64,000 bases of DNA, from assembly GCA_007376485.1 (NCBI GenBank), contig VMGJ01000001.1:113922-177921 (forward strand), read 5' to 3'. The stretch comes from Parcubacteria group bacterium Licking1014_17. Its GTDB lineage: Bacteria; Patescibacteriota; Minisyncoccia; 2-02-FULL-40-12; IGHO2-01-FULL-4-A. The notes under the pieces were generated by a model. The model did no database searches, was not told where the DNA came from, and worked only from the letters and a program-made list of their open reading frames with translations. This document shows, one piece after another, positions 1,194 to 59,940 of this stretch (positions are counted from its first letter, which is position 1; each line of letters opens with the position of its first letter). The translations under genes and the position numbers were made by a program.

Positions 1194-2750
1194 TTGGTGG
1201 TATCCATAAGTATAAATAAATTATCTAAGTCTAAGAGTTTTAGAATCTCAAAGCGTTCTTTTTTGATTTTGTCTTTTTTGCTCACGTATATTCTGGTGGT
1301 ACTGGTGCCGTCAAATTTCGCCTTTGGTGATACTGCCGGACCAAATAGCCCCGGTATGAATATAGAGAATTCTTTGGTAGGAACAGTTCATTGGACTAAT
1401 ATGGACGACGATAAAGTATCCGACAATAGGTATACGACCAGTACGGGAAATATGAATAGTGGTGATGCCACTGTTTATCTGGAAGCAACTAATTTTGGCT
1501 TTTCGATTCCAGCCGGTGCAATAATTGAAGGTATTTCAGTAAATGTTGAAAGGAAAGCCAACGATACGAGCTTTTTTGATAACGCGATACGGATTGTAAA
1601 AAATAGAACGATAGGGACGACTGATAAGTCAAGTAGCAACGCATGGCCTATCAGCGACGGTACTATCACTTATGGCGGTACCTCTGATTTATGGGGAGAG
1701 ACCTGGACAGATACAGATATTAATAGCGCGAACTTCGGTTTTGCTATTTCGGTAAAAAAAGTTGGCGGGAGCAACAATAAAAAACCATCTATCGATTGGA
1801 TTAATATTACGGTAACTTACCATATACCAACACCTACTCCGACACCCACACCAACCCCAACCGACACTCCCACACCAACTCCGCCCCCGTCTCCGACACC
1901 AACAAGCACTCCCACACCGACCCCCACGCCCACGCCAACCCCTACACTAACCCCAACCCCTTCTCCGACTCCAACTCCTACGTCCACTTCTACTCCTACT
2001 CCCACGCCGACTGAAACCCCTACCCCTACCCCTCAAGAAAATGCAACCCTAACAATTATAACCAGGGTTAATAACACCCACGGGGGCACTCTTAATTCAT
2101 CCAACATTAAAACCCATGTAAGAACACCGGCAGGATATGTTTATTTACGGCAGAATTGGTTTATAGAATTTTTAATCAAGACCGCGGTTGCCGATATAAA
2201 CAATTCGGGCAGTGATGTTTCCGGTAGCCCCGCCGACGGTTCAGACGCTGGAATTTCATATTCATTGACTCCGGGAAATTATATAGTCGGTGAAGACGGT
2301 CCGCCGAGCGGCTATGAATTTAAGGGTTTCGGGGGCGACTGTGCGCCGGACGGATATATCACCCTTAACTATAACGACAATAAATCATGCACTTTGACTA
2401 ACGGCGATATTAACGGGGCTTTTAACCCAAGCGGTGGGGGTGGAGGCGGTGGTGGTGTCGCCGGAGCAAGCATTGAATTGCCCGAACAGAATCAAGTAAA
2501 CAATCCGGATCAGATTTCGTATTCTGTTCCCAATGCCGGAGAACTATCATCACCCGAGGCTCCAGTAAGTGAAGACGAGATATTGGGAGCCAGCATAACG
2601 CTTCCAGAAACAGGTTCGAATTTAGCACTCGGAGCTTTATACTTATTATTTATTTCTTTGATTATAACGGGGCTTGTGATGATTTTCATGGCGATCAGCG
2701 TAAGGCTGTCTATCAAAAGGAGTTTCAAGAGATATAAATTATACACGTAA
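1194..2750 (+). CDS. Sortase-anchored (LPXTG) cell-surface protein with Pro/Thr-rich linker and Gly-rich tract
   Basis: A signal-peptide-like N-terminus, a long (TP)n linker and a G10 run. The C-terminus carries LPETG followed by a hydrophobic segment and a KRSFKRYK tail, which is the classic sorting signal. The start codon is uncertain (TTG/GTG). Confidence 0.6.
1823..2030 (+). repeat. Tandem low-complexity coding repeat (ACNCCN)n encoding the (Thr-Pro)n linker
   Basis: A visible ccaacaccgac / ccgactcc periodicity. The GV-rich antisense ORF at 1817-2005 is an artefact of this repeat. Confidence 0.7.
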
Positions 2751-23271: not shown

Positions 23272-23312
23272 AACTCTCGGGGGAATATGTCTTTTCATAG
23301 CCGAAGGTTTTA

Positions 23313-23457
23313 ACTCGCTGGTATGTTTTTCGGGACTTCGTTTTCCCCTGCGAGGAAAATTCATCTAATGAAGTCGCTGTCATTTGTCAAGACATAAAGT
23401 CATTGACAAAACCATGCTGACAATGACTTCAACAGCACTCAAAACACACCAGCTCGT
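23313..23457 (+). repeat. Family C repeat copy C1 (145 bp), TIR ACTCGCTGGT(A/G)TGTTTT / AAAACACACCAGCTCGT
   Basis: Shares the internal block GTCATTTGTCAAGACATAAAGTCATTGACAAAACC.TGCTGACAATG.CTTCAACAGCACTC with 49928-50099 and 35964-36021. A family-B-like fragment (GGGGGAATATGTCTTTT) abuts its left side. Confidence 0.55.
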
Positions 23458-25465: not shown

Positions 25466-26296
25466 ATGCCAAAAGTTTCAATAATAATCGTGCACTACCG
25501 CGTGCCCGAGCTTCTTAAGCTTAACCTGAAATCAATAGAAAATACCCTCAAGGGCTTTGATTATGAAACAATCGTGGTTGACTGGGGGGCAATCAGAAAA
25601 ACCGCCGATATGATAAAGGAGGGTTTCCCAAATGTCAGATATCTGCCGTTTAAAGAAAACAACGGCTACGCTAAGGGGGTAAATACCGGCGCCGAAAACG
25701 CCAGAGGCGAATATTTATTATTTTTGAACCCGGATATCATCCTCAAAGAAAATTCAGTCCAGAAAATGGTACGATATATGGAGGAACATCCGGATATCGG
25801 CATTTTAGGCCCCAAGCTTCTCGGTTTTGATGGTTTGATCCAGCACTCTTATTTCAGATTTTATAAACCAATAACCGTAATTTTAAGAAGGTTGAGTTGG
25901 CTGGCAAAAATATTCAATCTCCGGCGCGTGATTGACAACTTCCTTATGCTTGATACCAACCCGAATAAAATCCAGACGCCCGACTGGCTGATGGGAAGCG
26001 TCCTGATGGTTTCACGGCAAGCCCTGAATAAAGTGGGAAAGATGGATGAGAGATTTTTTATGTATTTTGAAGACGTTGACTGGTGCCGGCGCTTTTGGCA
26101 AAATGGTTACAAGGTTGTGTATTATCCGGAGGCGGTGATGTACCATTATCATCAGCGGGAATCATATTCCGGTTGGGGGCCGCTGGATGTTTTTGTGAAC
26201 AGGACTACGAGGCGGCACATAAAAAGCGGCTTTAAATATTTTTTTAAATACCGGAACATAAATAAACCGACTCTTAAATTATTACATGAAAAATAA
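25466..26296 (+). CDS. Glycosyltransferase family 2
   Basis: The SIIIVHYR...L...NNGYAKGVN pattern and a DxD motif. Confidence 0.65.
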   Translation: MPKVSIIIVHYRVPELLKLNLKSIENTLKGFDYETIVVDWGAIRKTADMIKEGFPNVRYLPFKENNGYAKGVNTGAENARGEYLLFLNPDIILKENSVQKMVRYMEEHPDIGILGPKLLGFDGLIQHSYFRFYKPITVILRRLSWLAKIFNLRRVIDNFLMLDTNPNKIQTPDWLMGSVLMVSRQALNKVGKMDERFFMYFEDVDWCRRFWQNGYKVVYYPEAVMYHYHQRESYSGWGPLDVFVNRTTRRHIKSGFKYFFKYRNINKPTLKLLHEK

Positions 26297-27494
26297 AATT
26301 CTGATTGTTTTGAGCGTAATACTGTTCGCGGCTGTATTTTTCTGGCTGGGCGCCGAGTACAACACCACTGCCATTGTTGAAACTCCGATACCGTCGGTGA
26401 GCGAAACCACGGTACCCACGTCCACCAAGCCCGCAGGCGTCGATTTTAACACGTTTTGGACGGTCTGGAACCTTGTTCATTCCCAATACGTGGATAACGC
26501 CAAATTAAAAGACCCAGACCTTCTTTACGGCGCCATAGACGGCATGGTGCAAGCCGTGGGAGACCCGTATACGACATTTTTGAGGCCGCAGGACTCCGAG
26601 AGCCTTATGCAGCAAATATCGGGCTCTTTTAGCGGCGTAGGAATCGAAATTGGCATAAGAAACAGCGTTCTTACCGTTATTTCGCCTATAAAAGACAGCC
26701 CAGCCGAGCGTGCCGGTGTTATCGCCGGTGACAAGATTTTGAAGATTGACGGCAAGGATTCTTCCGCTATGAATCAAGACGAAGCCGTCAAGCTGATACG
26801 TGGTCCGAACGGGACCACGGTTAAGTTGACGACCGAGCGCGGCAATCCGGCTACGGAAAAGGAATTCACGATAGTCCGCACGGTGATAAAAATTCCAGCG
26901 GCAAAGTGGAGTATGCTGGATGGGAATACCGCGTACCTGCAGGTGTTTATATTCAATAAAAATATAGATTCCGAATTCAAAAAAGCGGCAAAGGAAATTA
27001 CCGAATCTAAGGCAACGAAAATTATCCTTGACCTGAGAAATAACCCCGGCGGCCTTCTTGATTCGGCGGTATCCGTCGCCAGCTACTTTTTAGATACCGG
27101 CCAAGCAGTTCTTACGGAAAAATTCGGCGACGGCAGGCAGGATGCTTACAAAAGCGAAGCGAATGGAATTTTGAAGAATTATCCGATTGTTGTTCTTATC
27201 AACAAAGGTTCCGCATCAGCTTCGGAAATTCTCGCGGGCGCGTTAAGGGATAACAGAAACGTAACGATAATCGGCGAAACAAGTTACGGAAAGGGTTCGG
27301 TCCAGGTTATTAACGACTTACCAAATAAATCTTCCGTAAAGATTACCATAGCCAAATGGTACACGCCTAAAGGCATATCTATTAACGAAAACGGAATTAC
27401 CCCCGATGTTGAAGTCGTCAGGACAGAAGATGACATACAAAAAAATAAAGACCCTCAGCTTGATAAAGCCATAGAAATTATCAAGAAATTGTAA
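26286..27494 (+). CDS. Carboxyl-terminal processing peptidase, S41 family, with PDZ domain
   Basis: PDZ-like segment GIEIG...VISPIKDSPAERAGV. LDLRNNPGGLL and TSYGKGSVQ carry the catalytic Ser/Lys context. Confidence 0.75.
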   Translation: MKNKILIVLSVILFAAVFFWLGAEYNTTAIVETPIPSVSETTVPTSTKPAGVDFNTFWTVWNLVHSQYVDNAKLKDPDLLYGAIDGMVQAVGDPYTTFLRPQDSESLMQQISGSFSGVGIEIGIRNSVLTVISPIKDSPAERAGVIAGDKILKIDGKDSSAMNQDEAVKLIRGPNGTTVKLTTERGNPATEKEFTIVRTVIKIPAAKWSMLDGNTAYLQVFIFNKNIDSEFKKAAKEITESKATKIILDLRNNPGGLLDSAVSVASYFLDTGQAVLTEKFGDGRQDAYKSEANGILKNYPIVVLINKGSASASEILAGALRDNRNVTIIGETSYGKGSVQVINDLPNKSSVKITIAKWYTPKGISINENGITPDVEVVRTEDDIQKNKDPQLDKAIEIIKKL

Positions 27495-27562
27495 CTATAA
27501 GTTAAATCACCGTTATAAACCAAAGTTTTGATTAATTTAAAATTGTGTGTTATTAATAACAT

Positions 27563-28021
27563 ATGAAAATTGTATTACTGCAAAATATAAAAGGAACCGG
27601 GCAGATAGGGGATATGAAGGAAGTCAGCGACGGATTCGCCAGAAATTATCTCATACCGAACAAAATGGCCGTGGCCGCCTCGGCTTCAGCCGTGAAACTA
27701 TCCGAAACACTGAAGAAACAGCGCCAACTTCAGTATGAAAAAGACGAAAAAACTGCCGAGGAAATCGCGAAGAAGCTGGAGGGTTTTGAGTTAAATATCA
27801 CAGAAACCGCCAATGATGAGGGGCAGTTATACGGCTCTATAGACGCGAAAAGAATCAAAGAAGGGCTTCATGAAAATAAAATTGACGTGCCGGTGGAAGT
27901 CATAGATTTACCCGAACATATCAAAACAACCGGCACCCATGAAGTAAAACTAAAACTTCACCCGGAAGTTGACTCGATTCTAAAGATAAATATTACTTCC
28001 GAAAACAAAACATCCGCCTAA
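27563..28021 (+). CDS. rplI: 50S ribosomal protein L9
   Basis: MKIVLLQNIKGTGQIGDMKEVSDGFARNYLIPNKMAV matches L9. Confidence 0.85.
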   Translation: MKIVLLQNIKGTGQIGDMKEVSDGFARNYLIPNKMAVAASASAVKLSETLKKQRQLQYEKDEKTAEEIAKKLEGFELNITETANDEGQLYGSIDAKRIKEGLHENKIDVPVEVIDLPEHIKTTGTHEVKLKLHPEVDSILKINITSENKTSA

Positions 28022-29059: not shown

Positions 29060-29815
29060 CTAAATGAGTTTAATTTTATTCAGCCAGTAATCATTTTCCC
29101 ATTCCCAGAGGGCTTTCGCGGCAAGAAACGCCCTGATGTCTTTTTCAAACTCTTTTAACTCTTTTAATTCAACATAACCGGTTAGGTCGTCCCATTGGTG
29201 TTCACATTTTCCAGAATTCCGATAGCCATTTTTTATTTTTGCCGTTCCTCCTTTTTCTCTCATAACTGCGCCACAGCCATTCAGACACGGCTTTGCCTGG
29301 TCAATCCTTAAAATCCAGCGGGCAAGCGGCGGCATATCCGGCTCTTCATATAACGCCTCCGAATAGGCGGCCGTCTGGATGCTGTAATCCCTGTATATCG
29401 CCTGGGACGTTTTTATGTCCAAAATGCCGGTCCTGCCGTCAAAATCCGCCAGCACGTCCAGTGTCCCCGCGTAATGATGGTTGCGGCTGATGATTTTTGT
29501 TTCGATCCTTCGCGGAACAATTTCATGTTTATTTTTAAATTTCATAAATTCGCCTATCGCCGGTTCCACGGAGCGGGGGACTTCGATTTTCTTTCCGGCT
29601 AGTATCGCTTCAACGATATCGTGTATTAAGGTGCCTTCTTCGGCGGATTTGTTTTTCTGGCGTTCCGCGGATTCGAAACTGTCGTGGTCGCCGTAGAATT
29701 TGTAGAGAGCGGGTTTTGACTTGATGGACAATATGGAAGTCACTCGGGGATACCACACGCCATTCAAATCATAACCGTTGAATTCTTTGAAATGATTCAG
29801 ATCTTTATAGAACAT
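29060..29815 (-). CDS. PD-(D/E)XK superfamily nuclease (RecB/Cas4-like fold) with C-terminal Cys cluster
   Basis: Motifs GTLIHD, AGTLDVLADFDG..GILDIKTS (D-x(n)-D/E-x-K) and SIQTAAY (QxxxY). The C-terminus has C-x3-C-x22-C-x-H and a W-rich tail. Confidence 0.6.
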   Translation of the reverse strand: MFYKDLNHFKEFNGYDLNGVWYPRVTSILSIKSKPALYKFYGDHDSFESAERQKNKSAEEGTLIHDIVEAILAGKKIEVPRSVEPAIGEFMKFKNKHEIVPRRIETKIISRNHHYAGTLDVLADFDGRTGILDIKTSQAIYRDYSIQTAAYSEALYEEPDMPPLARWILRIDQAKPCLNGCGAVMREKGGTAKIKNGYRNSGKCEHQWDDLTGYVELKELKEFEKDIRAFLAAKALWEWENDYWLNKIKLI

Positions 29816-30046
29816 ACGAATATCTTATCATTAACTATTGCCGATAGGCGATAGGGCTTTTCTCATATAGATTACGTCTGACAATGTAGGTTGTGCGACA
29901 TGATACCTATTCTAATATACGGGTATTAGATATCGAATTACTAACGAATAACGGCGTGGGACAACCTATAAAGCGTTGGGTATCCGATCTAAGTGCTTAT
30001 TAATTCCTACATTCAATACCCTATCCATGAATAAAACCCGGGGTCT

Positions 30047-30198
30047 GGCGAATAACGTCTTATAGCACCGTTGAAATCGCAAATTGCATGGTCGGTTTGC
30101 GATATAATATGCGGCAAGCATCGCAAACCGAATTTGCGATTTCACGGAATGAGCAAACTCGCTGGGTTTGTGAATGATGATAGAAGACGTTATTCACC
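30047..30198 (+). repeat. Family D structured repeat copy D1 (152 bp)
   Basis: Shares GTCTT.TAGCACCGTTGAAA...TTTCACGGAA.GAG...TCGCTGG...GTG.TGAT..AAG with 42871-42976. Hairpin stems differ but remain complementary. Outer inverted repeat GGCGAATAACGTCTT/AAGACGTTATTCACC. Confidence 0.55.
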
Positions 30199-30419
30199 AG
30201 ACCATAGACCGCCACTTCCCTGCCGTTTTTCAAAAAATAAAACACAATATAAATAATTTGTGTCAATAAAGTTATCCACAGACACAACTTTATCAAACTT
30301 GACAAAATGGGTGTTAATATGCGCTGGTGTTTTTGTTAATGTTTGAATTCGAAACGTATTTTAAATAATTCATACTCTCCCCCGCTCCCCCGCAGGGGTG
30401 TCGCTTATTTTCTCGAGCT

Positions 30420-35798: not shown

Positions 35799-35826
35799 TT
35801 CATTGATGATTGAGGTTAATTAATGA

Positions 35827-35946
35827 ATATATCTTTTCGCAGATGTTCGGGCTTTCCAGCGAAGCCTTCACTTATACCTCGCCAGTTTTCTCCCTTCGGG
35901 GGACCAAGCAAAACTGGCTCGCTGTACTGCTCAAAGACACATTCAT
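35827..35946 (-). repeat. Family B structured repeat copy B6 (reverse orientation)
   Basis: The reverse complement contains TTTGAGCAGTACAGCGAGCCAGTTTTGCTTGGT...AAAACTGGCGAGGTATAAGTGAAGGCTTCGCTGGAAAGCCCGAACATCTGCGAAAAG. Confidence 0.6.
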
Positions 35947-35963
35947 TAATTGCCGGCATAAAG

Positions 35964-41616: not shown

Positions 41617-41768
41617 GGGAATGTGTCTTTGAGCAGTACAGCGAGCCAGCCCCCACCATCACGTTGGTGGGGGGCTGGCGAGGTATAAGTGAGGGCTTCG
41701 CTCGCCTCGCTGGAGCCTACGGCGAAGCGGGCTGGAAAGCCCGAGTATCTGCGAAAAGACATATTCCC
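41617..41768 (+). repeat. Family B structured repeat copy B1 (with an extra internal hairpin)
   Basis: GGGAATGTGTCTTTGAGCAGTACAGCGAGCCAG...GGCGAGGTATAAGTGAGGGCTTCGC[insert]GGGCTGGAAAGCCCGAGTATCTGCGAAAAGACATATTCCC. Confidence 0.6.
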
Positions 41769-42824: not shown

Positions 42825-42853
42825 CCCGCCTAGTTGCTTAGGCGGGGTTTTCA
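42825..42853 (+). terminator. Rho-independent terminator (CCCGCCTA-gttgc-TAGGCGGG then GTTTTCATTT)
   Basis: An 8-bp GC stem followed by a T-run, right after the 41888-42808 stop. Confidence 0.6.
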
Positions 42854-42870
42854 TTTGAAGATGAACTAAT

Positions 42871-42976
42871 GTCTTTTAGCACCGTTGAAAGAGCGGATTG
42901 CACGGTCCGCCTTGGGCGGAATCCGCTCTTTCACGGAACGAGTCCTGTCGCTGGCGGGACGAGTGGTGATAAAAGG
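42871..42976 (+). repeat. Family D structured repeat copy D2 (106 bp)
   Basis: See D1. The hairpin GAAAGAGCGGATTGC...GGAATCCGCTCTTTC replaces the D1 stem GAAATCGCAAATT/AATTTGCGATTTC with compensatory changes. Confidence 0.55.
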
Positions 42977-43036
42977 CGTTAGCTCATCGCCGGGCTCTAT
43001 TGAAAATTGAGGATTAAGCGGGTATATTATAGGCAT

Positions 43037-43609
43037 ATGCTGAACAAAATTATATTTGTCATAATTGGATTGCTTATGGTCGTGGGTATTTACTATATTT
43101 CCACGAGAAAAGACAGAAATATTTTTGAATCGGGTCCGACGAATACGCCGTATGCGACCAAGACAACCGGCTCAACAATCAGCTTTACGCCTGCCCCAAC
43201 GGGATTGATTTCCGGCACCCCGACGCCCATTTCATCAAAAACCCCAACGCCAACCCAATCCTCCACTCCAACACCGACTTTTCCACGCACACCGACGCCG
43301 ACCTCTACTCCAACTCGCACACCCACACGTACCCCTACACCTACTCCGACACCTCAAACCTATAATGTTTCAATTTATCAAAGAAGATACAACCCAAACC
43401 AGATGACTGTTAATAAAGGCGACAGAATTTATTACAAAAACGACGACACAATAGCCCATTCGGTCACTTCCGACACTGGCGAGTTTGACTCGGGCATTCT
43501 CCAGCCCGGAGACAGATGGACATTAGACACGTCAATTTTAGATCCTAAAGCGTATACTTACTACTCAACGCCGAACCCAAGTACGAGGGGCGGAATACTG
43601 GTCAGATAA
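43037..43609 (+). CDS. Secreted or anchored protein with (Thr-Pro)n linker and C-terminal cupredoxin-like beta-sandwich domain (no obvious Cu ligands)
   Basis: An N-terminal TM helix and a PT-rich linker similar to the LPXTG protein. A roughly 90-aa C-terminal domain (YNVSIYQRRYNPNQMTVNKGDRIYYKNDDTIAHSVTS) follows. Start moved to the ATG at 43037. Confidence 0.4.
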   Translation: MLNKIIFVIIGLLMVVGIYYISTRKDRNIFESGPTNTPYATKTTGSTISFTPAPTGLISGTPTPISSKTPTPTQSSTPTPTFPRTPTPTSTPTRTPTRTPTPTPTPQTYNVSIYQRRYNPNQMTVNKGDRIYYKNDDTIAHSVTSDTGEFDSGILQPGDRWTLDTSILDPKAYTYYSTPNPSTRGGILVR

Positions 43610-46639: not shown

Positions 46640-46776
46640 TTTTGTTAGCGAGTAAAGTGAGCTTTACAAAAATGAGCACCTCGCTTCAATTTTGCCAAAA
46701 CTCAACTTCACTTTTTTAAATTTATTAATTATTTTCAAGTGAGCCAATATGTATTGAGGACTGTTCGGGTTGAACT

Positions 46777-46900
46777 GGGAATATATCTTTGAGCAGTACA
46801 GCGAGCCAGTTTTGCTTGGTCCGCCTTGGGTGGAAAACTGGCGAGCTATAAGCGAGGGCTTCGCTGGAAAGCCTGAGCATCTGCGAAAAGACATATTCCC
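46777..46900 (+). repeat. Family B structured repeat copy B2
   Basis: GGGAATATATCTTTGAGCAGTACAGCGAGCCAGTTTTGCTTGGTCCGCCTTGGGTGGAAAACTGGCGAGCTATAAGCGAGGGCTTCGCTGGAAAGCCTGAGCATCTGCGAAAAGACATATTCCC. It lies inside the grpE-dnaK intergenic gap. Confidence 0.6.
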
Positions 46901-47055
46901 AGTTAGTTTCAGTCCCGAAAAACATATTGGCAAGTGACTTTACTTTACATTCACGTTAATTTTCTTCGGTTGTCTTACCTCCGACTTTGGCTTTTTGATT
47001 CTACCATATATTTTCAACGTACCTGCGGTCCGTTGAAATGTCATATGGCGAATCA

Positions 47056-49927: not shown

Positions 49928-50099
49928 ACTCGCTGGTGTGTTTTTTGTGACTGGATTTTCGCCAGGGCTTCGACTGAGCTCAGCCGAACGTCCGACGAAA
50001 ATCCATCTGGTGAAGTCATCGTCATTTGTCAAGACATAAAGTCATTGACAAAACCGTGCTGACAATGGCTTCAACAGCACTCAAAACACACCAGCTCGT
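49928..50099 (+). repeat. Family C repeat copy C2 (172 bp)
   Basis: ACTCGCTGGTGTGTTTT...GTCATTTGTCAAGACATAAAGTCATTGACAAAACCGTGCTGACAATGGCTTCAACAGCACTCAAAACACACCAGCTCGT. Confidence 0.55.
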
Positions 50100-50168
50100 T
50101 GGAACCTTTAGTAAGGCGGTAAAAACCCAATACTTGCTTTAAAACACAACGTCTCTCCCCTGCAAGGG

Positions 50169-50302
50169 TGATATGCCTTTGAGCAGTACAGCGAGCCAGT
50201 TTTGCTTGGTCCCCCACCATCACGCTGGTGGGGGAAAACTGGCGAGGTATAAGCGGAGGTTTTCGCTGGAAAAACCGGAGCATCTGCAAAAAGGCATATC
50301 AC
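50169..50302 (+). repeat. Family B structured repeat copy B3
   Basis: GTGATATGCCTTTGAGCAGTACAGCGAGCCAGTTTTGCTTGGTCCCCCACCATCACGCTGGTGGGGGAAAACTGGCGAGGTATAAGCGGAGG...CTGCAAAAAGGCATATCAC. Confidence 0.6.
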
Positions 50303-53233: not shown

Positions 53234-53380
53234 ACACACTCCCTATGTCAATGAGCATAATCGTAACCAAAAAACTGACTCTGATTCTATACTCAAATAT
53301 TTTGCGGGTCAAATGGTGGAATTGAATCGCTCGCCTCGCTGAAGCCTTCGGTGAAGCGAGCAAAATGGGAAAGACACGCT

Positions 53381-53516
53381 AAAAAACTGCTTTTGAGCAG
53401 TACAGCGAGCCAGTTTTGCTTGGTTCCTCACCAGCGCGCTGGTGAGGGAAAACTGGTGAGCTATAAGCGAGGGCTTCGCTGGAAAGCCCGAGCATCTGCG
53501 AAAAGGCAGTTTTTTA
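53381..53516 (+). repeat. Family B structured repeat copy B4
   Basis: AAAAAACTGCTTTTGAGCAGTACAGCGAGCCAGTTTTGCTTGGTTCCTCACCAGCGCGCTGGTGAGGGAAAACTGGTGAGCTATAAGCGAGGGCTTCGCTGGAAAGCCCGAGCATCTGCGAAAAGGCAGTTTTTT. Confidence 0.6.
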
Positions 53517-56398: not shown

Positions 56399-56533
56399 AA
56401 AAAACTGCTTTTGAGCAGTACAGCGAACCAGTTTTGCTTGGTCTCACGCCGGCGCGCCGGTGGGAGAAAACTGGTGAGGTATAAGCGAGAATTTCGCTGG
56501 AAAGTTCAAGCATCTGCGAAAAGGCAGTTTTTT
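56399..56533 (+). repeat. Family B structured repeat copy B5
   Basis: Near-identical outer arms to B4 (AAAAAACTGCTTTTGAGCAG...CTGCGAAAAGGCAGTTTTTT). Central hairpin CTCACGCCGGCGCGCCGGTGGGAG. Confidence 0.6.
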
Positions 56534-56607
56534 AGGCTTTGGTGGATGAATTTTCCTCGCAGGCGAAAATCCAGTCCCGAAAAGCATATTGGCTCGCCTT
56601 AAATCTA

Positions 56608-57939
56608 TCACGCTGTACTCGCCCATTTGCCGGTCTGCCTAGTAAGCAATTCTTTGGCCAACTCCGGCTCGCCCATAATTTCTTTCACTATTTTTTCCAT
56701 CCGCATACTTTGCGAACCTTTAACCAAGATAATATCCCCTTCTTTCATGAGATTCTGAATCTTAATTTTCGCTTCTTCGGTGTCGTGGTAATAAAACACT
56801 TTTGCGGGACCTAAAATGCTTTCAGCCGCTTCGGCTGTGAATCGCGCCGCCTGACCGACTGCGATTACTATGTCGGCACACTCGCCGGCGCGGACGCCAA
56901 TCAGCCGATGAGCTTCGGTTTCGTATTTGCCCAATTCTTTCATATCGCCCAAAACGGCGATTTTCCGGACTTTCTTTTTCCCCAGACGCCGGGCGCTATT
57001 GCCGTATTCATTCAGAACATCCAGCGCCGCTATCGTGGCAATCGGCGAAGCGTTATAAGTATCGTCAATGAGAGTGGTTTCCTTGATGCCTTTCAGCAGT
57101 TTCATTCTGCCTTTTGGAAATTCAATCAAATCTAAGGCCTCCGAAATCTCAACCAGATTCAATCCCAGATGCGCGCCTACGACTACCGCTGTCAATACCC
57201 CATAAAGCTGGTGAGTGCCGAGGAAATTATGGATCCTAACCGGAATGAAATTTTCGCCTTGATGAATTTTAAAAGACAAGCCACCGATATCGCTCCGCGC
57301 GTCATTGGCGAAAAACGAAACTTCGGAAACCCGTACGTCTGCGCCGTCATAGAAACCGAACGTGCTCACGGGACACTTCGCGTATTTTTTCATATCCAGA
57401 ACCGTCTGGTCGTCATAGTTAAGCACCGCTAAGCCATTCACTGGCAGACACCTAATCAGCTCTGATTTTTCCATAATCACGGCTTCGGGACTAGCGTAAT
57501 ATTCAACATGAACCGGCACTTCGCCGACAGCGGTAATAACGCCTATCTGCGGTTTTACGACGTTAACCAGATAAGAAATATCACCCGGCCTATCCGCCCC
57601 GAGTTCCAGAACCAGCATTTTGGGAAAAGTGCCGCCAAGAATTCCGTAGGCTCTTAAAAGCGCCTTAAAAGCCGACCACAGAAAAATTATTTTCTTTAAA
57701 ATAGATTTGGGACCGTCCAGCGGTTTTACGCCCATTACTGTAAGTGGGACCCCGAATTCGTTATTATAATTTTCATCGTTCCTGACGGCGGTGAATTTAT
57801 GGCTTAAAACTCCGTATATCGCCTCCCGAGCCGTCGTCTTGCCGACGGACCCCGTAACGCCGATAATAATCGGCGTATGCCTTTGAATTAGTTTGACTGC
57901 TATGTGGCGCAAAAACCATTTTAAAACCTTTTTAATCAT
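56608..57939 (-). CDS. murF: UDP-N-acetylmuramoyl-tripeptide--D-alanyl-D-alanine ligase
   Basis: IGVTGSVGKTT P-loop and Mur ligase central and C-terminal domains. Located in the dcw cluster. Confidence 0.8.
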   Translation of the reverse strand: MIKKVLKWFLRHIAVKLIQRHTPIIIGVTGSVGKTTAREAIYGVLSHKFTAVRNDENYNNEFGVPLTVMGVKPLDGPKSILKKIIFLWSAFKALLRAYGILGGTFPKMLVLELGADRPGDISYLVNVVKPQIGVITAVGEVPVHVEYYASPEAVIMEKSELIRCLPVNGLAVLNYDDQTVLDMKKYAKCPVSTFGFYDGADVRVSEVSFFANDARSDIGGLSFKIHQGENFIPVRIHNFLGTHQLYGVLTAVVVGAHLGLNLVEISEALDLIEFPKGRMKLLKGIKETTLIDDTYNASPIATIAALDVLNEYGNSARRLGKKKVRKIAVLGDMKELGKYETEAHRLIGVRAGECADIVIAVGQAARFTAEAAESILGPAKVFYYHDTEEAKIKIQNLMKEGDIILVKGSQSMRMEKIVKEIMGEPELAKELLTRQTGKWASTA

Positions 57940-58134
57940 CCCGTACGAAACAAGAAACGCTTCAGTGTTGTCTGCGAATAACGTTTACTCTGTCTTATTA
58001 AATTGCTATACATATTTTTTATAACTATTTCTTTTTAAGCGTTTCCGTATAACATAACTAATTTATGAAAACACGGCACTTCTGTTCAAATACTTACGCT
58101 TTGTTAATCAGGCTTTAGCTGTTTCGTTCGGGAT
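57938..58134 (+). mobile_element. Family A element copy A4 (long form, 197 bp), exactly filling the ftsI-murF gap
   Basis: Termini ATCCCGTACGAAAC...GTTTCGTTCGGGAT. The left-flank minus-strand ATGA is the murF start. The right flank is TCATTA (minus strand TAATGA), where TAA is the ftsI stop codon. Confidence 0.6.
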
Positions 58135-58137
58135 TCA

Positions 58138-59940
58138 TTAAGACCTTGTCGGCGGAATGTTAAAATAATTTAACAAATAACGGGTAATATCGCCAAAAGT
58201 TGACGGCAGGGTGTTTGACGCGAATTTAGCGCCGACCGGCTTGTCAATCCTTAAAAGAATCGAAAATCTGGGTGCGTATGCCGGCGCGAATCCGACGAAG
58301 TCGTGTATGAACTCATCATTGCCCAAATATCCCCCCTCCGGGTCGGGAATCTGGGCGGTACCGGTTTTCCCCGCGACATCGTAACCGTCCACTTTAGCCT
58401 TATCAAAACCTTTGTCAACCACATCAACCAGCATTGATTTCATCAAAGCCGAAGTTTTTTCTTTTATCGCCATATTTAATATCTTCGGGTTAATTTTGTC
58501 GTGCGTTCCGTCCGGGCGGACTATTTCTTTGACCACGTGCGGCCACATTATTTTTCCGCCGTTGGCTATCGCCGAATAAGCCGTTATTAATTGTATCGGG
58601 GTAACGGCAATGCCCTGCCCGAAAGAAGCCGTGGCAAAATTCACTTTTCTTCCGGAATAAAGATTAGCGATACTGCCCGATATTTCGCCGGCAAGATCCA
58701 CGCCTGTTTTCTGACCGAAACCGAAGTTTACCACGTAGTTCAGAAAATTATCGTCACCCGTCCTTTTCTGGGCAAATATTGCCCCCGTGTTCAGCGAAAA
58801 TTCCAACACCTGTCTCATTGTTTGAACACCATGCGCCTTTTCATCGTAGTTTTGGATGGTAAAATCGTCAAACTTTACCTGCCCGGGGTCCCTATATGTG
58901 GTTTCGGGTGTTACTGCGCCGGTATCCAGCGCCGCCGCCATGGTTATGCTCTTAAAAGAAGAACCGGGTTCAAAGTATTCCTGGATGTTTGGATTAATAT
59001 AATTATCCATTTTAAAATCATTGTAATTGTTGGAGTCGTAGCCCGGTGAAGCAACCATCGCCAAAATTTCACCGGTGTTCGGGTCCTGAACGATAGCCAT
59101 GCCTTTTTCCGGAGTCCAGCGCTTCATTAGCTCATTCAGTTTGGTACTCACATATGATTGAATATTGGGGTCAATAGCCAGAACTAAATCAACTCCTTTA
59201 TACCCCGCGCTGCCGTCAGCGCTGTTTTCGCTGTTTTTGTCAGTGTTATTCGCGGTTTTATCCCCATTCAGCTTCAAGAAATTATAAATTTTCGAATAGG
59301 TCTCGTTGCCCAAAATTTCCTGTGTTTTAAGTTTCCCGCTCAAAAAATCTTCATAATAGCCCTCAACTCCGTATTGACCGATTCTTTCTTCGCCTTTAAA
59401 CCCCACAAATCCCGATACCGACGAAATCTCCGGGCTGAATTGGTATTGTCTGCTTATTTCCGAAGCCGACGATATCCCGTCAACCTTAAGTTTTGTTATT
59501 TTATCCGCCTGCTCTTTGGTTATATTGTGAGCCAGAACCTGGTAGCTTTTACCTGCTTCATTCAGTTTGGTTTTCAGTTCTTCAACCGGAATATTCACGA
59601 TTTCCGAAACTTTCACGGCCGCGTCGTCGGGCGATTCGATTTTATAATTATTGCCGAAAACGAAATACGAGTTTTTATTGGCGGCTGCCAAAACATTATT
59701 TCCGGTTGATAAATCGGATAAATAAATCCCGCCCCTGCCCGCCAGCAAAGCGGAAGGGTTGTTGTATTGGCTTTTCGCTTCCTGAACAAAGTACGAATGT
59801 TGGAAAAACATCACCGAAATCAATCTATAAAATATAACAGCCGAGCCAAACAGAACAAAAAAAGCGCAAACATAAAGTCTCGCGCCCGATAAGCCCCGGT
59901 TATGATTTAATGCCCCGTTTGCTCTTAATGGCACGGCCAT
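58138..59940 (-). CDS. ftsI: Penicillin-binding protein 2/3-type peptidoglycan D,D-transpeptidase (FtsI-like)
   Basis: An N-terminal TM helix. SSFKS (SxxK), SxN and KTGTAQ motifs of the transpeptidase domain. Confidence 0.8.
   Translation of the reverse strand: MAVPLRANGALNHNRGLSGARLYVCAFFVLFGSAVIFYRLISVMFFQHSYFVQEAKSQYNNPSALLAGRGGIYLSDLSTGNNVLAAANKNSYFVFGNNYKIESPDDAAVKVSEIVNIPVEELKTKLNEAGKSYQVLAHNITKEQADKITKLKVDGISSASEISRQYQFSPEISSVSGFVGFKGEERIGQYGVEGYYEDFLSGKLKTQEILGNETYSKIYNFLKLNGDKTANNTDKNSENSADGSAGYKGVDLVLAIDPNIQSYVSTKLNELMKRWTPEKGMAIVQDPNTGEILAMVASPGYDSNNYNDFKMDNYINPNIQEYFEPGSSFKSITMAAALDTGAVTPETTYRDPGQVKFDDFTIQNYDEKAHGVQTMRQVLEFSLNTGAIFAQKRTGDDNFLNYVVNFGFGQKTGVDLAGEISGSIANLYSGRKVNFATASFGQGIAVTPIQLITAYSAIANGGKIMWPHVVKEIVRPDGTHDKINPKILNMAIKEKTSALMKSMLVDVVDKGFDKAKVDGYDVAGKTGTAQIPDPEGGYLGNDEFIHDFVGFAPAYAPRFSILLRIDKPVGAKFASNTLPSTFGDITRYLLNYFNIPPTRS

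What the first reader, a model, noticed from the sequence alone, without database searches (positions are those of the whole stretch)
30047..30198. Family D: two-hairpin structured element with compensatory stem changes; one copy sits next to the orphan nuclease
Copies at 30047-30198 and 42871-42976 share GTCTT.TAGCACCGTTGAAA, hairpin 1, TTTCACGGAA.GAG, hairpin 2 with conserved loop TCGCTGG, GTG.TGAT..AAG. Hairpin 1 changes from GAAATCGCAAATT/AATTTGCGATTTC (D1) to GAAAGAGCGGATT/GGAATCCGCTCTTTC (D2) with fully compensatory substitutions. Hairpin 2 changes from CAAAC/GTTTG to TCC/GGA around the same loop. CCGTTGAAA can further pair with TTTCACGG to extend stem 1. Two independently varying, structure-preserving stems with conserved single-stranded motifs is the hallmark of a functional small RNA (sRNA, ribozyme-like or protein-binding). 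D1 occupies the otherwise empty 600-bp gap upstream of the PD-(D/E)XK nuclease gene. The ORFs at 30060-30305 and 30071-30256 lie inside it and are almost certainly not coding.
Basis: seen in the sequence. Interest (0 to 1): 0.55.

Follow-up and report, generated by a model that had tools for sequence, protein, structure and literature searches.

The report
Structured repeat family in a Parcubacterium
The two look-alike elements are real and fold into a conserved three-armed structure, but they belong to a family of at least 12 dispersed copies in this small candidate-phyla-radiation genome, so they look like a new structured, probably mobile, repeat rather than a two-copy small RNA tied to the neighbouring nuclease.

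Summary
D1 (30042-30203) and D2 (42860-42988) share four conserved blocks. A third D copy lies just outside the window.

D is one subfamily of a larger superfamily in the same contig, a Parcubacteria MAG (Licking1014_17). Two further subfamilies have the same architecture. X has 7 copies and Y has 2 full copies plus fragments. That makes 12 full copies in about 81 kb, on both strands and always intergenic.

Covariation is strong. In 8 D+X copies 84% of cells pair and 35 of 49 pairs change on both sides; slid controls give about 40%. In the 3 D copies alone, 94% pair. Pairing favours the motif strand.

Homology stops exactly at the closing stem. Flanks are unrelated, with no conserved promoter, terminal repeat or target duplication. 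Copies are nested or truncated by one another.

There is no Rfam match, and no copy was found in syntenic loci of the nearest relatives or in the genome, metagenome, phage or plasmid searches.

Best reading: a lineage-specific, structure-constrained interspersed repeat, similar in kind to bcr1 or REPIN, and probably mobile. A two-copy sRNA linked to the nuclease is not supported.

The parts
30042..30203 (+). D1, full element: P1 30042-30061/30184-30203; junction AUAGCA 30062-30067; P2 30068-30085/30131-30147 with bulge GCAUGGU 30086-30092 and distal hairpin 30093-30130; P3 hairpin 30150-30174 with loop UCGCUGG 30159-30165
42860..42988 (+). D2, full element: bulge GCACGGU 42900-42906; P3 loop UCGCUGG 42948-42954. 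It sits between a terminator-like hairpin (42825-42846) and a promoter-like site (43000-43028)
41617..41768 (+). X1, X subfamily. It lacks the GCUUGGU bulge and carries a small hairpin insertion (41698-41732) in the P3 loop
46773..46904 (+). X2, X subfamily, nested inside a Y-like outer stem
46743..46931 (+). Y-like shell: Y-type 5' end GAGCCAAUAUGUAUUGAGGACUGUU and 3' end CAGUCCCGAAAAACAUAUUGGC, enclosing X2
50168..50302 (+). X3, X subfamily
53381..53515 (+). X4, X subfamily
56399..56533 (+). X5, X subfamily (88% identical to X4 over the 136-nt repeat reported; flanks unrelated)
35818..35951 (-). X6, X subfamily on the minus strand, between priA and def
23313..23457 (-). Y1, Y subfamily: same plan, with bulge GCAUGGU and P3 loop UCGCAGG
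49928..50099 (-). Y2, Y subfamily, with a hairpin insertion in the P3 loop
35957..36030 (-). Y3, 5' half only, cut off where X6 begins
56545..56588 (+). Y 3' fragment (P3 plus 3' end) directly after X5
23281..23296 (-). X 3'-end fragment GAAAAGACATATTCCC next to Y1

Best explanation
D1 and D2 belong to a lineage-specific superfamily of 125-170-nt interspersed repeats with three subfamilies, D, X and Y. The unit that gets copied is the folded element itself.

The shared fold is as follows:
- A long closing stem, P1.
- A three-way junction.
- A long arm, P2, carrying a conserved GCWYGGU bulge and a free-to-vary tip.
- A short arm, P3, with a Y-GA-R tandem-mismatch base and a UCGCUGG loop.

Shown here: the fold is maintained by compensatory change. 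It is better on the motif strand than on its complement. The repeat is dispersed through intergenic DNA in both orientations. Copies interrupt one another.

Inferred: the element spreads, or spread, as a non-autonomous mobile unit that is recognised by its single-stranded fold, as ssDNA or as a transcript, rather than by terminal sequences. This resembles REP/REPIN or bcr1-type repeats. The two G-rich loops and the GA motifs would be the contact points for an unidentified mobilising or binding protein. Where a copy is co-transcribed (D3 lies in a 3' UTR), the very stable fold would incidentally act as a 3' stabiliser or processing site.
For: - Copy census: 8 D+X copies in the window at E <= 9e-7, plus Y1 and Y2. 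X7 and D3 lie in 17 kb of extra contig sequence.
- Covariation in 8 D+X copies: 84% of cells paired, and 35 of 49 pairs with changes on both sides. None of 500 shuffles reached this, and slid controls gave 29-53% paired.
- Covariation in the 3 D copies: 93.8% paired and 19 of 56 pairs with double changes.
- Strand asymmetry: G-U pairs number 16 against 11 A.C mismatches, and 6 of those 11 are one conserved C.A pair in X. The motif strand has the lower MFE in 11 of 12 copies.
- Flank identity is 0.27, which is random. No target-site duplication or shared termini are visible.
- Nesting and truncation: X2 sits inside a Y shell, X6 truncates Y3, a Y 3' fragment follows X5, and an X 3' fragment lies beside Y1.
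- Orientation is independent of the neighbouring genes, which are all housekeeping genes.
- D2 lies between a terminator and a promoter-like site.
- Intergenic gaps that hold copies are much larger than in a relative: priA-def is 244 nt here against 3 nt in L032, and grpE-dnaK is about 417 nt against 110 nt.
- Structure-conserving repeats with compensatory change are documented for bcr1 (PMC3184786) and REPINs (PMC3116915).
Against: - No transposase, RAYT-type (HUH/Y1) transposase, reverse transcriptase or integrase gene is seen in the 81 kb examined.
- No empty site could be demonstrated. The nearest relatives are too distant (PriA 45% identity) for intergenic alignment.
- No presence/absence polymorphism is available.
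- The core is an asymmetric three-way junction with conserved loops. That is more elaborate than a REPIN and is the sort of pattern expected of a functional RNA.
- Covariation rests on paralogues within one genome, and the D+X alignment was fitted by the model.
Confidence: 0.55

Rival explanations
1. A multigene family of stand-alone, trans-acting structured RNAs. Examples would be a protein-sequestering or scaffold RNA, or a component of a CPR-specific RNP. Each copy would be an independent gene.
For: - Covariation is strong in three helices, and the single-stranded motifs GCWYGGU and UCGCUGG are conserved.
- Pairing favours one strand.
- No Rfam family matches, so it would be new.
Against: - Paralogues share no promoter or terminator, and similarity stops at the P1 ends.
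- No convincing promoter lies upstream of D1 or D2.
- D3 sits 5 nt after a stop codon inside a 3' UTR.
- Truncated and nested copies exist.
- X1 lacks the conserved bulge altogether.
- A density of about 1 copy per 7 kb in a streamlined genome is unusual for RNA genes.
Confidence: 0.2
2. Cis-acting transcript elements selected in place. These would be REP/BOX-like mRNA stabilisers, RNase III sites or bidirectional terminators between operons.
For: - The folds are very stable, at -51 to -90 kcal/mol.
- D3 lies in a 3' UTR just upstream of a terminator hairpin.
- X4 and X5 have A-run and U-run outer stems that resemble bidirectional terminators.
Against: - By my reading of the gene maps, most copies are antisense to the flanking co-directional genes (about 7 of 11).
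- D2 lies after a terminator and before a promoter-like site.
- Simple stabiliser hairpins would not need the conserved loop sequences or the three-way junction.
Confidence: 0.13
3. Double-stranded or cruciform DNA sites for a chromosomal protein involved in nucleoid organisation, replication or recombination, such as attC-like or dif-like sites.
For: - The copies are dispersed, intergenic and palindromic.
- Tandem G.A mismatches in a Y-GA-R context are also stable in DNA (established knowledge).
Against: - Strand-asymmetric wobble pairing argues for folding of a single strand.
- The attC R''/R' consensus (RYYYAAC/GTTRRRY) is absent.
- The genes between copies are housekeeping genes in mixed orientation, not cassettes.
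Confidence: 0.07
4. A small self-cleaving ribozyme or retro-mobile RNA that is copied through an RNA intermediate.
For: - The three-way junction has tandem G.A next to the junction, which resembles a hammerhead in outline.
- The element is multicopy and the unit is bounded by its 5'/3' pairing.
Against: - The hammerhead core (CUGANGA, GAAA, UH) is absent.
- No ribozyme model in Rfam 15 scores even at E <= 10.
- No reverse transcriptase gene lies nearby.
Confidence: 0.05

Closest known systems
bcr1 (group A bcr repeats) of the Bacillus cereus group
   Same: - It is an interspersed intergenic repeat of about 155 bp.
- It is predicted to fold into a closing stem with two independent stem-loops ('cruciform-like').
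- The structure is kept by compensatory base changes.
- Its genomic distribution is not conserved (PMC3184786).
   Different: - bcr1 is flanked by 5-bp direct repeats; none are seen here.
- The host phylum is different, and no sequence relation is known or was tested.
- Here three diverged subfamilies coexist and nest in one another.
REP / REPIN elements mobilised by RAYT (TnpA-REP, HUH Y1 transposase)
   Same: - They are abundant extragenic repeats with no TIR or TSD.
- The replicative unit is a hairpin predicted in ssDNA or mRNA.
- Compensatory changes across the hairpin are common (PMC3116915).
   Different: - REPINs are symmetric doublets of a short conserved REP. This element is an asymmetric three-way junction with two distinct conserved loops.
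- No RAYT gene was seen in the 81 kb examined.
Classical bacterial MITEs (Correia/NEMIS, ERIC, RUP, BOX)
   Same: - They are 100-170 bp long, intergenic, multicopy and strongly folding.
- They are sometimes co-transcribed, with effects on mRNA.
   Different: - MITEs have sequence-conserved terminal inverted repeats and target-site duplications.
- Here the terminal stem differs in sequence and length (13-21 bp) between copies, and there is no TSD.
5S rRNA and type III hammerhead (architecture only)
   Same: - All are three-way junctions of about 120 nt closed by 5'/3' pairing.
- One arm has an internal loop or bulge.
- The other arm has tandem non-canonical G.A pairs.
   Different: - RF00001 and the hammerhead models give no match even at E <= 10.
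- The conserved cores of both are absent.
- Twelve dispersed copies with variable stems do not fit an rRNA.

Membership tests
Any Rfam 15 family | Score at or above the family's gathering threshold | tested here: not met
   Only two tRNAs pass in the whole window. At E <= 10, D1, D2, X2/Y4 and Y1 give only chance-level hits far below threshold.
Structured interspersed repeat (bcr1-like) | Multicopy, dispersed and intergenic, with homology confined to the unit | tested here: met
   There are 12 full copies in about 81 kb. Flank identity is 0.27, which is random.
Structured interspersed repeat (bcr1-like) | Fold maintained by compensatory changes | tested here: met
   35 of 49 pairs in the D+X copies and 19 of 56 pairs in the D copies change on both sides. 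Paired cells are 84-94%, against about 40% in slid controls.
Structured interspersed repeat (bcr1-like) | Short direct repeats (target duplication) at the ends | tested here: not met
   No direct repeat at the boundaries of any of the 12 copies.
Structured interspersed repeat (bcr1-like) | Presence/absence differences between related strains | not testable with these tools
   No close relative is on record. The best PriA homologue is 45% identical.
MITE | Sequence-conserved terminal inverted repeats matching a transposase | tested here: not met
   The outer P1 differs in sequence and length between copies. No transposase gene is present in the examined loci.
REPIN/REP | Inverted doublet of a short conserved REP forming one hairpin | tested here: not met
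   The element is an asymmetric three-way junction and its two arms are not copies of each other.
REPIN/REP | A cognate RAYT gene in the genome | not testable with these tools
   Only 81 kb of the 188-kb contig could be read. None was seen there.
Integron attC site | R''/R' core sites RYYYAAC...GTTRRRY, with cassette arrays next to intI | tested here: not met
   The termini read GAATAAC.../...GTTATTC (D1) and ...CTAATG/CGTTAG (D2), which do not fit. The genes between copies are housekeeping genes in mixed orientation.
Hammerhead ribozyme | Core CUGANGA / GAAA / cleavage-site UH around a three-way junction | tested here: not met
   The junction strands read AA(Y)GAG and GAG(CAU/UG), with no CUGA. 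No Rfam hammerhead model hits.
Retron msr-msd | An adjacent reverse transcriptase, with short msr hairpins preceding the long msd hairpin | tested here: not met
   No RT gene is present. On the better-pairing strand the long arm precedes the short arm.
Riboswitch or 5' leader | Fixed position and orientation upstream of a regulated gene class | tested here: not met
   Copies lie in both orientations, next to unrelated housekeeping genes, in a 3' UTR (D3) and after a terminator (D2).

The most novel reading that the evidence does not exclude
The D/X/Y superfamily is a previously undescribed class of functional structured RNA specific to a deep Parcubacteria lineage. It could be a high-copy RNP or scaffold RNA. 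It could also be a self-mobilising RNA whose two G-rich loops (GCWYGGU, UCGCUGG) pair with CCAGCGA-type sequences, which do occur in the Y termini and in the X P2 strand, to direct insertion into other copies.
Probability: 0.12. Interest if true: 0.8.

Novelty: new member of a known kind. Interest (0 to 1): 0.45.

Why it matters
CPR/Patescibacteria genomes are small and streamlined, and I found no description of interspersed repeat families in them (two literature searches).

Here a repeat takes up roughly 2% of the sequence examined. It has three diverged subfamilies that share one fold. This offers a clean natural experiment in structure-preserving evolution, and a ready-made covariance model for annotating such MAGs.

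The finding also has a practical use. The elements can stop gene callers from annotating spurious small ORFs such as 30060-30305. They may also explain some assembly breaks.

If the elements prove to be transcribed and bound by a dedicated protein, they would be a new RNA class. If they are mobilised as ssDNA, they would extend REPIN-like biology to the CPR.

Tried and rejected
- Rfam at gathering and at E <= 10 on D1, D2, X2/Y4 and Y1: nothing relevant.
- Exact-pattern scans:
  - The D core TTTCACGGAANGAGN{3,12}TCGCTGG in 185,579 species genomes gave 8 hits. None of these loci contains the upstream CACCGTTGAAA block, and the one read in full (L012) looks unrelated, so I treat them as chance.
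  - The X 19-mer in JGI metagenomes gave 16 hits. Their flanks carry none of the other conserved blocks, so they look like chance matches in unrelated, coding-like sequence.
  - Three viral scans gave chance hits only.
The source MAG itself is apparently not in either large collection.
- blastn of D2 against phages and of the X2/Y-shell region against plasmids: no match.
- Syntenic loci of the four nearest PriA relatives (45% identity or less): no D, X or Y copy by covariance model or by a loop descriptor. The only hit was an unrelated-looking 90-nt hairpin in L034.
- Empty-site test for D1 against L032: the intergenic regions are not colinear, so the test is inconclusive.
- A pseudoknot between the P3 loop UCGCUG and CAGCGA in X is possible, but D lacks the partner, so I dropped it as a family feature.
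- K-turn reading of the P3 base: rejected, because the flanking pair covaries as a Watson-Crick pair.
- Replication-strand bias: GC skew flips near 26-28 kb, and 8 of 11 copies have the motif on the C-rich strand. This is not significant and is confounded with gene orientation.
- 5S rRNA, hammerhead, retron, attC and riboswitch readings were each rejected (see the membership tests).

Full report
**The observation.** Reading both sites and aligning them confirms the shared blocks on the + strand. These are TAGCACCGTTGAAA, TTTCACGGAAnGAG, TCGCTGG and TGnTGATAnAAG. The first two blocks occur exactly only at these two places in the window.

Including it, the elements are larger than reported: D1 is 30042-30203 and D2 is 42860-42988.
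- D1: GGTCTGG-c-GAATAACGTCTT pairs with AAGACGTTATTC-a-CCAGACC.
- D2: GATGA-a-CTAATGTCTTTT pairs with AAAAGGCGTTAG-c-TCATC. This stem includes two U-G pairs that exist only on the + strand.

Both copies fold far better than shuffles, with z = -7.3 and -5.6. Over the full elements the + strand is more stable than its complement by 4 kcal/mol for D1 and 13 kcal/mol for D2.

**The fold.** The structure is a three-way junction with these parts:
- P1, the closing stem.
- A short junction, (U/A)UAGCA, that pairs with UGAUA on the 3' side.
- P2, which runs CCGU-U-GAAA.../...UUUC-ACGG. It carries a conserved 5' bulge GCAYGGU and a distal hairpin that is free to vary (38 nt in D1, 13 nt in D2).
- A 2-nt linker.
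- P3, with a covarying closing pair, an invariant tandem G.A/A.G, a 5-6 bp variable stem and the loop UCGCUGG.

**It is not a two-copy family.** A repeat scan of the window aligned D2 with five other + strand sites. These have the same plan but a different core: TCTTTGAGCAGTACAGCGAGCCAG ... TATAAGCGAG-stem-CGCTGGA-stem-GAGCATCTGCGAAAAGA. I call these X1-X5. A sixth copy, X6, lies on the minus strand.

I built a covariance model from X1-X6 only. Run without filters, it recovers D2 at 47 bits (E 1e-10) and D1 at 33 bits (E 9e-7). It also finds two minus-strand elements, Y1 and Y2, at 24-27 bits. These scores are close to the best unrelated hairpin (27.4 bits). The assignment therefore rests on the fold, which shows the same plan. 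They have a P1, the sequence GAGUGCUGUUGAAG..., a P2 with the bulge GCAYGGU and a distal hairpin, and a P3 with a GA base and the loop UCGCAGG.

Reading 17 kb more of the same contig gave two further copies. X7 is at L037:772-900 and scores 127 bits. D3 is a third D copy at L038:6059-6196 and scores 49 bits. D3 combines a D1-like P2 stem with a D2-like distal hairpin. It also has a new, fully complementary 21-bp P1.

The total is 12 full copies plus fragments in about 81 kb, or roughly one per 7 kb.

**Covariation.**
- On the model-derived alignment of the 8 D+X window copies, 84.3% of cells pair and 35 of 49 pairs change on both sides. Shuffles average 14.6 such pairs, and none of 500 reached the observed value. 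Sliding the 3' partners by 1-3 columns gives 29-53% paired and 8-12 such pairs.
- On a plain MAFFT alignment of D1, D2 and D3 with a hand-written structure, 93.8% of cells pair and 19 of 56 pairs change on both sides. Slid controls give 33-44% paired and 1-4 such pairs.
- The two G.A positions at the base of P3 are non-canonical in every copy.
- G-U pairs number 16 against 11 A.C mismatches, and 6 of those 11 are a single conserved C.A pair in X.
- The motif strand has the lower MFE in 11 of 12 copies.

Two caveats apply. All sequences are paralogues from one genome, and the D+X alignment was fitted to the structure.

**Behaviour as a repeat.**
- Forty-nucleotide flanks of same-subfamily copies are 27% identical on average, which is random. 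This holds even for X4 and X5, which are 88% identical internally. Homology therefore ends at the P1 boundary.
- No direct repeats flank any copy, and P1 differs in length (13-21 bp) and sequence between copies.
- Copies interrupt each other:
  - X2 sits inside a Y-type outer stem (46743-46931).
  - X6 begins where the 5' half of Y3 breaks off.
  - A Y 3' fragment follows X5.
  - An X 3' fragment lies beside Y1.
  - X1 and Y2 carry small hairpin insertions in the P3 loop.
- Neighbouring genes are housekeeping genes, including L9, gltX, priA, def, EF-P, dnaK/J, grpE, cysS, dnaB, L21 and mur genes. No transposase, RT or integrase is present.
- Orientation is unrelated to the direction of the flanking genes:
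  - D1, X2, X4, X5, X6 and Y1 are antisense to co-directional neighbours.
  - D2 lies between a terminator-like hairpin and a promoter-like site.
  - D3 starts 5 nt after a stop codon and precedes a terminator hairpin, so it lies in a 3' UTR.

**Taxonomic reach.** The contig is ENA ERZ27284379 k139_899233 (188 kb). Its PriA carries the NCBI name of the MAG 'Parcubacteria group bacterium Licking1014_17'. The MAG probably comes from the Ohio groundwater study PMC5581439.
- The best PriA homologue among 5.8 billion proteins is only 45% identical, so no close relative exists in the data.
- Four syntenic loci from those relatives keep the gene order but contain no D, X or Y copy, either by model or by descriptor.
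- Their corresponding intergenic gaps are shorter. In L032, priA-def is 3 nt against 244 nt here.
- Exact-core scans of species genomes, JGI metagenomes and viral contigs gave only matches that lack the other conserved blocks, which I read as chance. blastn against phages and plasmids gave nothing.
- No Rfam 15 family matches any subfamily.

**The nuclease.** The 251-aa protein at 29060-29815 is a weak PD-(D/E)XK match, below the Pfam threshold. It has a 63%-identical orthologue in the same syntenic position in L032, and no element was detected beside that orthologue. D1 is on the opposite strand. The adjacency is therefore incidental and the nuclease is not an orphan. The ORF at 30060-30305 (81 aa, TTG start, minus strand) has no counterpart at D2.

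**Interpretation.** The data show a structure-constrained element that is selected on one strand. Its unit of duplication is the fold itself, and it has spread through intergenic DNA and into its own relatives. That is the known behaviour of structured interspersed repeats.
- bcr1 of the B. cereus group is about 155 bp. It has a closing stem plus two stem-loops, it is kept by compensatory changes, and it is transcribed (PMC3184786).
- REPINs are hairpin replicative units with compensatory changes. They are thought to move as ssDNA through RAYT (PMC3116915).

This family fails the classical MITE tests, having no conserved TIR and no TSD. It is not a REP doublet either.

I therefore file it as a new member of the general kind 'structured interspersed repeat'. 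My working mechanism is recognition of a single-stranded fold, with the loops GCWYGGU and UCGCUGG and the Y-GA-R motifs as contacts, by an unidentified protein. I give this 0.55.

The main rival is a family of genuine RNA genes, at 0.2. The elaborate conserved core keeps it alive. The lack of shared expression signals, the 3' UTR and post-terminator locations, the truncated copies, and X1's loss of the conserved bulge all weigh against it.

The remaining rivals rank lower:
- Cis-acting stabiliser or terminator.
- DNA-level protein site.
- Ribozyme or retroelement.

**Verdict.** The feature is real, is statistically strong and is absent from Rfam. It is of moderate interest as a new repeat or RNA family in a CPR genome, and it would become much more interesting if transcripts or a partner protein were shown.

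Noticed in passing
window 15042-15250 and 57931-58140; partial copy at 10021-10070: A separate repeat family of about 210 nt, with 89% identity between the two long copies. All three copies share GCTWTAGCTNNTTCGTTCGGGAT. The long copies lie next to the murA-like (EPSP_synthase) gene and the PBP gene. The D/X/Y model does not detect this family.
   Followed up: partly
window 53327-53361; also 41698-41732 (inside X1) and about 49960-49990 (inside Y2): A small GC-rich hairpin unit (GCTCGCCTCGCTGRAGCC...GAAGCGRGC) occurs on its own upstream of X4. It also occurs as an insertion in the P3 loop of X1, and a comparable hairpin sits in the P3 loop of Y2. It may be a further mini-element that targets that loop.
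   Followed up: partly
window 29882-29903 and L032:5052-5080: A 22-nt block, ACAATGTAGGTTGTRCGACAT, lies in the intergenic region upstream of the PD-(D/E)XK gene. It is conserved in the relative even though the rest of the intergenic sequence is not alignable. It is a candidate operator or promoter element.
   Followed up: no
window, about 26000-28000: GC skew changes sign here, from positive in 1-28 kb to negative afterwards. This parallels a change in the predominant gene orientation and could mark a replication terminus or origin boundary.
   Followed up: no
window 1827-2042 and 43220-43363: Degenerate 12-18-nt periodic CCNACN repeats lie inside ORFs and encode Pro/Thr-rich linkers. One is in the cupredoxin-like protein just downstream of D2.
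   Followed up: no
L034:5232-5321 (relative, GCA_030698885.1): A 90-nt intergenic element with a long closing stem and two inner hairpins scores 27 bits with the X model. It lacks the D/X/Y motifs. Other CPR lineages may carry their own structured repeats.
   Followed up: partly
window 30420-29816 gap compared with L032 and L035: Relatives carry a Pyr_redox_2 gene and small ORFs between the M23 peptidase and the nuclease. In this genome that interval is a 604-nt gap holding D1.
   Followed up: no
Y termini (for example 23313-23325, minus strand) and X P2 strand: The sequence CCAGCGAG at the 3' end of Y, and CAGCGAG in the 5' strand of X P2, are exact complements of the conserved P3 loop (C)UCGCUGG of D and X. 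This could allow element-to-element pairing. It was not tested.
   Followed up: no
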